From positions 1-33,389 of the forward strand of contig NW_021832065.1 of NCBI RefSeq assembly GCF_006345805.1: 33,389 bases of DNA, in the 5' to 3' direction. The DNA is from Octopus sinensis (taxonomy: Eukaryota). The position numbers were made by a program, and so were the translations under genes. Of the stretch, positions 28,995 to 29,227 are shown in pieces. Below the pieces are notes generated by a model, which worked only from the letters and a program-made list of their open reading frames with translations, was not told where the DNA came from and did no database searches. The stretch's first letter is position 1, and each line of letters begins with the position of its first letter.

Positions 28995-29227
28995 ATCTAT
29001 CTATCTATCTATCTATCCATCTATTTAGCCATATATATTTATATGAAGTTCCCTATATTGTCGTTAAAAGCATGAAATAGGAGTAGTAACAGTCGACAAC
29101 TGATGAGGAGTTATCTTCCTTTGGTAATTTGTCCTGTACGTTTCTCTCGTATGTTTACGTATTTTTCACTCGTTGGTGGTATCCTGTACACAATGTGTAT
29201 TTTTCATTGCACAGACACACACACACA

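What the first reader, a model, noticed from the sequence alone, without database searches (positions are those of the whole stretch)
29052..29118. Second, sequence-divergent instance of the permuted hammerhead-like layout
Seen: CCTAT-A (AUA triplet, 29055-57), TTGTCG (29058-63), 10-nt linker TTAAAAGCAT, GAAA-TAGG (29074-81), a 12-nt linker, CGACAA (29094-99), CTGATGA (29100-06), then hairpin GGAG TTAT CTTC. Stem I (TTGTCG/CGACAA) and stem III (CCTAT/ATAGG) are both perfect and differ in sequence from the 20900 locus, while core motifs and the first linker length are kept. That pattern suggests structural conservation. No GAAA follows the downstream hairpin, so this is not a normal type III hammerhead.
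Basis: partly seen in the sequence, partly recalled or inferred. Interest (0 to 1): 0.8.

Follow-up and report, generated by a model that had tools for sequence, protein, structure and literature searches.

The report
Split-core hammerhead ribozyme in Naiad retroelements
This stretch is a shortened, probably inactive copy of a hammerhead-like RNA motif that sits in thousands of jumping-gene copies in this animal genome, is wired in an order I did not find described, and likely cuts itself to set the front end of the mobile RNA of Naiad-type elements, which were reported to lack a standard hammerhead.

Summary
Observation confirmed (0 strict matches in 1000 shuffles). The locus is a 5'-truncated copy of a ~730-bp non-coding Penelope-like repeat. 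Its blocks (cut site, GAAA, CUGAUGA) run in the 'type-SGC' non-circular hammerhead order of Eckert 2023, known there only from metatranscriptomes. It differs in one defining point. Across at least eight repeat families here, stem II is closed by a strand upstream of the cut site, with family-specific compensatory changes, not by the strand after CUGANGA. The core is therefore open between A9 and 10.1. The window copy has lost that strand. One family lies 0.5-1.3 kb behind Naiad reverse-transcriptase remnants (16 of 30 loci). By eye, published Naiad consensus sequences from several phyla carry this form or type CSG, although Naiads were reported to lack canonical hammerheads. In sister family B, 38 of 101 copies start 0-20 nt after the predicted cut, against 4 in the 21 nt before it (p 5e-6), as expected if the template RNA was cleaved there. 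In the window's own family the trend is not significant (7 vs 3). No cleavage assay or RNA ends were available. New variant of a known kind; interest 0.85.

The parts
29042..29208 (+). 5'-truncated copy of repeat family A (non-coding Penelope-like unit, ~690-760 bp when whole); starts 16 nt before the predicted cut and lacks the upstream stem II strand
   Evidence: 86% to natural copy L021 over 170 nt; unit spacing in partial tandems; alignments
29052..29057 (+). Block S, first part: stem III 3' strand CCUAU and H17 = A; predicted scissile bond after 29057
   Evidence: sequence; cut position inferred by analogy with hammerheads
29058..29063 (+). stem I 3' strand
   Evidence: pairs with 29094-29099; 93% of cells paired in 19 copies
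29064..29068 (+). 5-nt linker from stem I to stem II (1-5 nt in other families)
29069..29073 (+). stem II 3' strand (AGCAU here; position 11.1 is C in 13, U in 12, A in 1 of 26 copies); its partner G(A)UGCU lies about 25-30 nt upstream of the cut in intact copies and is absent here
   Evidence: only 3 bp possible in the window copy
29074..29081 (+). Block G: GAAA core and stem III 5' strand
29082..29093 (+). linker from stem III to stem I (2 nt shorter than in most copies)
29094..29106 (+). stem I 5' strand CGACAA and CUGAUGA core
29107..29118 (+). after A9: in intact copies GGAGUUA can pair with an upstream UAACUCU (putative closing helix IV); in this copy only the local hairpin is possible
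   Evidence: 90% of cells paired, no covariation; script test weak
29119..29208 (+). shared 3' end of family A
20845..21045 (+). family B copy with upstream stem II strand GGCUGG (20884-89) pairing UCAGCC (20916-21); cut predicted after 20905; one A of GAAA missing in this contig only
15833..15984 (-). family B copy that begins about 9 nt after the predicted cut, next to a (TA)n run
29683..30120 (+). family C copy; motif 29933-30004 with mutated core (CA at the triplet, GCCAAA for GCGAAA)

Best explanation
The locus is a 5'-truncated, likely inactive copy of a hammerhead-type motif near the 3' end of a non-coding Penelope-like repeat that is likely mobilised by Naiad elements; in intact copies the motif is predicted to fold as a four-strand pseudoknotted hammerhead and likely cuts itself to make the 5' end of the RNA that is copied into the genome. 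Strand order in intact copies: stem II 5' strand, spacer, stem III strand + UH cut site + stem I strand, 1-5-nt linker, stem II 3' strand + GAAA + stem III strand, linker, stem I strand + CUGANGA. Stems I, II and III all cross, as in types SGC/CSG, but the backbone is open between A9 and 10.1, often with a further helix that joins the two free ends. Shown: sequence layout, complementarity, between-family compensation, Penelope-like insertion anatomy, the link of family D to Naiad RT, and the pile-up of copy starts behind the predicted cut in family B. Inferred: the 3D fold, catalysis, cleavage in vivo, Naiad as the driver for family A, and inactivity of this copy.
For: Upstream stem II reaches score >=11 in A 18/26, A2 7/11, B 26/28, B2 8/9, C 18/24, D 17/26, F 5/6, G 4/6, H 3/6, I 2/3. 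A stem II contiguous with CUGANGA reaches it in only 3 of these 145 copies (2 in A2, 1 in H). A canonical type-I family gives 1/30 upstream. Family-specific pairs: G(A)UGCU/AGCAC, GAGCA/UGCUC, GGCUGG/UCAGCC, GCCCA/UGGGC, GACACC/GGUGUC, GGGGCC/GGCCCC, GGCCCC/GGGGCC, GAAGGC/GCCUUC, GCACCA/UGGUGC. Family C: 88% of cells paired, 14 cells changed on both sides (0/500 shuffles), one stem II pair C-G in 13 and A-U in 7; RNAalifold finds part of that stem unprompted. Fixed 3' end, variable 5' end, partial tandems, inverted 5'-truncated neighbours, tail extensions in 3 copies and (TA)n flanks in 15 of 29. Family D motif 472-1334 nt downstream on the same strand in 16 of 30 Naiad-RT loci; DKA motif in L210. 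Family B copy starts: 38 at 0..+20, 4 at -21..-1, 6 at +21..+36 among 101; hazard ratio 6.8, p 5e-6; 13 vs 1 when junctions at (TA)n runs are left out. Same layout or type CSG seen by eye in published Naiad consensus sequences. Penelope hammerheads tolerate an unpaired base at this junction (PMC4209133).
Against: No cleavage assay. No raw RNA reads, so no RNA ends. No covariation within family A. The copy-start peak in family A is not significant (7 vs 3 after dropping 4 internal deletions or duplications, 45 copies). The family B peak centres at +7..+19, not at 0, and 25 of 38 junctions abut (TA)n. No Naiad ORF piece in 92 family A loci (with repeats), 90 B or 30 C loci; Neptune fragments lie near 3 family A places, not contiguous with it. 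The swap matrix for stem II is only partly diagonal because several families have G/C-rich strands. Helix IV is weak by script: 30/107 vs 141/1070 shuffled, and a flanking control was often as good. In family B a downstream GGCU, 5-6 nt after A9, can also pair with the stem II 3' strand (22/28). Eckert et al. state that known hammerheads have no insertions above 1-2 nt at this junction. The MFE fold of the window copy is a competing nested hairpin. In another Penelope element no RNA reads ended at the hammerhead site and cleavage was not needed for insertion in vitro (PMC11167929).
Confidence: 0.76

Rival explanations
1. An ordinary type-SGC hammerhead in which stem II comes from the sequence after CUGANGA, either a single G10.1-C/U11.1 pair, the local hairpin, or a strand after a short insertion; the upstream complementarity is secondary.
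For: A G follows A9 in families A and C; a single G-C pair can replace helix II in engineered miniribozymes (PMC544870); family B has a 4-bp option 5-6 nt downstream; H can pair downstream in part.
Against: The base after A9 is U, C or A in B, D, F, G and I; a contiguous downstream stem II scores >=11 in 3 of 145 copies; the upstream strand changes together with the stem II 3' strand between families.
Confidence: 0.08
2. The fold is real but no longer or never catalytic; it serves as a protein-binding or reverse-transcriptase pausing element, and the copy-start peak comes from stalling at the pseudoknot plus microhomology to (TA)n targets.
For: Peak centred 7-19 nt after the site, 25 of 38 junctions at (TA)n; not significant in family A; PMC11167929 found no in vivo ends for another Penelope hammerhead.
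Against: The catalytic core letters and a UH triplet placed exactly between stems III and I are kept across families whose stems differ; non-TA junctions show the same edge, 13 vs 1; a stall would be expected at the 3' side of the structure, where starts are fewer (6 at +21..+36), though +37 onward was not sampled.
Confidence: 0.1
3. The motif works in trans, as a dimer between two RNAs or two tandem units, as minimal Penelope type-I hammerheads do, so the crossed helices need not form within one molecule.
For: Penelope hammerheads are reported to act as dimers (PMC4209133); copies occur in partial tandems.
Against: Stem III is 4-6 bp and mostly not palindromic; all four strands lie within about 90 nt; the related SGC and CSG forms cleave as short single transcripts (PMC10085705).
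Confidence: 0.05
4. Chance arrangement in an AT-rich, microsatellite-rich window.
For: A loose descriptor can match by chance (7 in 1000 shuffles).
Against: 0 of 1000 for the strict form; thousands of genomic copies in many families.
Confidence: 0.01

Closest known systems
Type-SGC non-circularly permuted hammerhead ribozyme (Eckert et al. 2023, PMC10085705; main text read, supplement searched)
   Same: Block order S, G, C; all core letters; short stem I to stem II linker (typically 3 nt there, 1-5 nt here); three mutually crossing helices
   Different: There stem II follows CUGANGA directly (block C is assumed unbreakable); here it is closed by an upstream strand. There found only in metatranscriptomes, none in genomes of known organisms; here in thousands of copies in an animal genome, on retroelements
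Type-CSG hammerhead (same paper)
   Same: Same cyclic order S-G-C; by eye nematode Naiad consensus sequences carry exactly this form
   Different: Published from two metagenome sequences only; CUGANGA is joined to stem II, whereas here the chain is open at A9/10.1
Naiad Penelope-like elements (Craig et al. 2021, PMC8557442; passages and parts of the supplement)
   Same: 5' truncation, partial tandems, inverted copies, tail, (TA)n targets; family D matches the 3' motif of their octopus Naiad consensus sequences and lies behind Naiad RT remnants
   Different: Described as lacking canonical hammerheads, with only 'HHR_core' or 'HHR_half_core' flags; family A has no ORF
Minimal type-I hammerheads of Penelope elements and non-LTR retrozymes (PMC4209133; bioRxiv 10.64898/2026.07.22.740005; passages)
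   Same: Hammerhead near the 3' end of a Penelope-like unit, non-autonomous derivatives
   Different: Those are type I, nested, with a weak palindromic stem III and dimer folding; this one is pseudoknotted, with a full stem III and the cut near its 5' side

Membership tests
Hammerhead ribozyme | Core CUGANGA, GAAA and NUH triplet in register with stems I and III | tested here: met
   across families
Hammerhead ribozyme | Stem II closing on 10.1-11.1 | tested here: met
   in intact family copies through an upstream strand; the window copy itself can form only about 3 bp
Hammerhead ribozyme | Site-specific self-cleavage after NUH | not testable with these tools
   indirect only: copy-start peak in family B, not significant in family A
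Hammerhead types I, II, III | Nested three-way junction, cyclic order S-C-G | tested here: not met
   order is S-G-C; no Rfam match
Type-SGC hammerhead (Eckert 2023) | 5'-to-3' order S, G, C | tested here: met
Type-SGC hammerhead (Eckert 2023) | Block C intact: stem II strand directly after CUGANGA | tested here: not met
   3 of 145 copies
Type-SGC hammerhead (Eckert 2023) | Extra helix joining the far ends of stems I and II | not tested
   a different closing helix (after A9 with sequence 5' of stem II) was tested and is weakly supported
Penelope-like element | Fixed 3' end, 5' truncation, partial tandems (pLTR), inverted copies, tail | tested here: met
   family A:
Naiad clade | ORF with N-terminal GIY-YIG and C-terminal RT with DKA | tested here: not met
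   family A has no ORF and no linked Naiad piece; family D is linked to RT C-terminal remnants and DKA occurs in L210; no GIY-YIG part was recovered
Naiad clade | (TA)n insertion bias | tested here: inconclusive
   15 of 29 family A copies have a (TA)n 3' flank, but Neptune elements are said to share the bias
Non-LTR retrozyme | Tandem repeats each with a type-I hammerhead | tested here: not met
   dispersed copies and partial tandems, not type I; definition
Non-LTR retrozyme | Circular RNA intermediate | not testable with these tools
   only contigs of unrecorded kind were available

The most novel reading that the evidence does not exclude
Most Naiad retroelements across animals carry active, non-circularly permuted hammerheads: type CSG in nematodes, and in cephalopods, cnidarians, ctenophores, acanthocephalans and crustaceans a new split-core form open between A9 and 10.1 with a fourth helix. 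More than ten thousand copies lie in this genome, and their cleavage sets the 5' end of the transposing RNA, as the genomic copy starts record.
Probability: 0.62. Interest if true: 0.93.

Novelty: new variant of a known kind. Interest (0 to 1): 0.85.

Why it matters
It would add a hammerhead topology that breaks the block rule behind the six permutations of Eckert et al. It would move non-circular permutations from a few hundred metatranscriptome sequences to animal genomes at 10^4 copies. It would supply the missing ribozyme of the Naiad clade and overturn the argument that Naiads thrive without one. It also gives a testable handle on what Penelope ribozymes do: the copy starts pile up just behind the predicted cut, so cleavage would make the template's 5' end. 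Short natural constructs allow a direct test.

Tried and rejected
Rfam scan: no match at the locus. Neptune as the parent: an RT piece lies upstream of one family A copy (L004), but 20 Neptune loci (longest ORFs 387-789 aa) carried no family A sequence, and only one an unrelated opposite-strand family B copy. Walking upstream in families A, B, C found no ORF. The genome-wide count of CGAAA-N14-32-CTGATGA (28,340 vs 2,519 control) is not a copy number: 30 of the first 99 loci are a canonical type-I family matched by accident and 26 are unassigned. RNA evidence: no RNA holder listed; four contig runs gave no molecule ends; neither bears on expression. Within-family covariation in A: none. One search used mis-indexed columns and was redone. 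One search misclassed junctions because the reference held the (TA)n tail and was redone. The two lines for the 20900 and 29938 copies at the end are mis-indexed and not used. The display hid gap-rich columns and with them a bulged A in family C stem II (seen). The scan's earlier findings held nothing. PMC3334697 was not held.

Full report
1. Observation. The window is a microsatellite-rich contig of a 2.7-Gb animal genome. A strict descriptor finds only this site in the window and none in 1000 dinucleotide shuffles; a loose one finds 7 in 1000. Rfam has no match here at E<=5. Three more instances lie in the window: 20900 (family B), a partial family B copy at 15833-15984 on the minus strand, and a mutated family C copy at 29933-30004.

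2. The locus is a repeat copy. The 166-nt query gave 882 candidates, 40 scored, paralogues at 84-91% identity. Copies share a 3' end and break off at variable 5' positions up to about 680 nt upstream. Five loci are partial tandems with a spacing of 688-763 nt. Several have an inverted 5'-truncated neighbour, three carry a tail into the start of the unit, and 15 of 29 abut (TA)n. This is the anatomy that Craig et al. give for Penelope-like elements (PMC8557442, passages). The unit has no ORF. The window copy spans 29042-29208 and starts 16 nt before the predicted cut.

3. Block order. Cut-site block, GAAA block, CUGAUGA block is type SGC of Eckert et al. 2023 (PMC10085705; parts 1-6 of 8 read, the whole main text). 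[quoted passage not shown] They assume that CUGANGA and its adjacent stem II strand cannot be separated.

4. Stem II comes from upstream. A genome-wide pattern for GAAA before CUGAUGA gave 28,340 hits against 2,519 for the reversed control. Of the first 99 loci, 30 are a canonical type-I family matched by accident, 26 are unassigned, and 43 fall into groups with this layout (assigned by clustering and by eye). Scaled up, that is roughly 12,000 copies with these exact letters; this is an estimate from 10 Mb of one contig. In ten groups (eight families, two of them split into related sets) the 5-6 nt before GAAA pair with a strand about 10-30 nt upstream of the cut site: score >=11 in A 18/26, A2 7/11, B 26/28, B2 8/9, C 18/24, D 17/26, F 5/6, G 4/6, H 3/6, I 2/3. 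Rows dropped because the core could not be placed: 3, 1, 5 and 3 of 29 in A, B, C, D. A stem contiguous with CUGANGA reaches that score in 3 of 145. The pairs differ by family. Family A's G(A)UGCU/AGCAC stands against GAGCA/UGCUC in its relatives: two compensatory changes, with the same stem I and linker. In family C, 88% of cells pair, 14 show changes on both sides (0 of 500 shuffles; related sequences can exceed such shuffles), and one stem II pair is C-G in 13 and A-U in 7 copies. Against: within family A there is no covariation beyond shuffles, the swap matrix is only partly diagonal, the control window in family C scores as high in 12 of 24, and family B has a 4-bp downstream option after a 5-6-nt insertion. 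The window copy has lost the upstream strand and can form about 3 bp.

5. A closing helix. In several families the bases after A9 can pair with sequence 5' of the stem II strand, often around an extra hairpin: 7 bp in A (90% of cells, no covariation), 7 bp in B2, 6 in F, 11 in one G copy. The scripted tests are weak: 30 of 107 copies vs 141 of 1070 shuffles, and the flanking control was often equal. I treat it as likely in some families, not shown in general.

6. Link to Naiads. Craig et al. report that Naiads lack canonical hammerheads and flag 10 'HHR_core' and 8 'HHR_half_core' cases. A short pattern found 185 genomic hits vs 3 control, nearly all family D, which matches the 3' motif of their octopus Naiad consensus sequences; the genome is therefore probably an octopod's (inference). 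Of 30 loci found with a Naiad RT C-terminal piece, 16 have the family D motif 472-1334 nt downstream on the same strand, within 1.5 kb of flank. One locus shows the Naiad DKA motif; Pfam RVT_1 matches two pieces weakly, below its cut-off. Families B and C share a spacer motif with D. Family A does not, and no Naiad ORF piece lies in its loci, so its driver is inferred. Reading the supplement by eye (parts 1, 12, 19, 24 whole, otherwise search passages), I saw the four-strand form in 9 records: Obim, Ovul, Amil, Aacu (one mismatch), Anas, Plae, EuTe, the record before Plae, and a ctenophore record (stem I only 2 bp). I saw type CSG in 8: Nbra-1, -2, -3, the record before Asuum, and four records whose headers I did not see, one with an extra U after A9. 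I saw none in Omin, Dcar and Ppla; 3 were unclear; 4 bivalve or hemichordate records showed no hammerhead in the passage seen. That is 17 of about 27 3' regions seen at least in part, of 54 listed. These were not run through a program, and unseen parts of the supplement may change the tally. All forms share the cyclic order S-G-C; the form here is that circle opened at A9/10.1 (inference).

7. Fossil test of cleavage. If the RNA is cut after the UH triplet, copies made from the downstream product should start at or just after that bond. I took the first 100 of 895 family B hits, picked by a pattern in the 3' half only, plus one neighbour. After setting aside 4 internal deletions, 38 of 101 start at 0..+20, 6 at +21..+36, 4 at -21..-1 and 10 in all of -100..-1: hazard ratio 6.8, p 5e-6, and 12.2 against the wider window. 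Leaving out junctions at (TA)n runs gives 13 vs 1. The peak is centred at +7..+19, which would need a few bases lost and microhomology joining. Polymerase stalling is not excluded, and positions beyond +36 were not sampled. In family A (45 copies) the raw counts are 10 vs 4, or 7 vs 3 after dropping internal deletions and duplications by eye; not significant. The window copy is one of those that start upstream. For another Penelope element, cleavage needed protein, was dispensable for insertion in vitro, and left no ends in RNA-seq (PMC11167929, passages).

8. Mechanism. Inferred: a transcript reads through an upstream copy, the four strands fold into a hammerhead core with G12, A13, A14 and CUGANGA on a stem II whose 5' strand arrives from upstream, and the 2'-OH of H17 attacks the next phosphate (standard hammerhead chemistry, recalled). 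The cut lies near the motif's 5' side, so the downstream RNA keeps most of the motif and gains a defined 5' end, and the split stem II falls apart with the upstream product. Target-primed reverse transcription by a Naiad-type protein then gives copies that begin just behind the cut. The A9/10.1 junction is known to tolerate an extra base (PMC4209133 passage; title of De la Pena and Flores 2001 seen in a reference list). I found no report of a full break there.

9. Novelty. Nine library searches found no paper that places SGC or CSG hammerheads in Naiads or animal genomes, or that describes a core open at A9/10.1. Passages of bioRxiv 10.64898/2026.07.22.740005, PMC13725137, PMC13159263, PMC6155905 and PMC544870 add none. 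The library lacks most subscription journals, bioRxiv supplements are closed, and figures are not held, so a prior description cannot be excluded. Verdict: works like a hammerhead of the non-circular class, is not a member of type SGC as defined, and this copy is probably dead. New variant of a known kind; interest 0.85.

Noticed in passing
L249, L261, L264 and 27 more loci (cluster 0): A very abundant family with a canonical minimal type-I hammerhead; its stem II has the same GGCUGG/UCAGCC sequence as family B, which may hint at shared ancestry or be chance.
   Followed up: partly
PMC8557442 supplement, parts 21, 25, 26: Bivalve and hemichordate Naiad 3' regions share a different conserved, G/C-rich motif without hammerhead core; possibly another structured RNA or ribozyme.
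   Followed up: no
PMC8557442 supplement, parts 13-16: Nematode Naiad consensus sequences fit type CSG by eye, a form published from only two metagenome sequences.
   Followed up: partly
G000:C8534 (L002, L032, L062): A ~99% duplicate of the window contig in opposite orientation; differences are mostly homopolymer indels, including the missing A of GAAA at window 20922.
   Followed up: partly
window 9099-9476 and 9590-10039, minus strand: ORF pieces that look like an R4/Dong-type non-LTR retrotransposon (label recalled, not tested).
   Followed up: no
L151-L158, L161-L164, L168: [quoted passage not shown] Their ribozymes were not located.
   Followed up: partly
window 574-799, 15024-15249, 2828-3057, 11014-11243, 29288-29593: Many copies of short interspersed repeats in both orientations.
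   Followed up: no
L300, L281, L257, L343 (singletons): Single loci that may represent further families with the same layout; L300 fits well.
   Followed up: no
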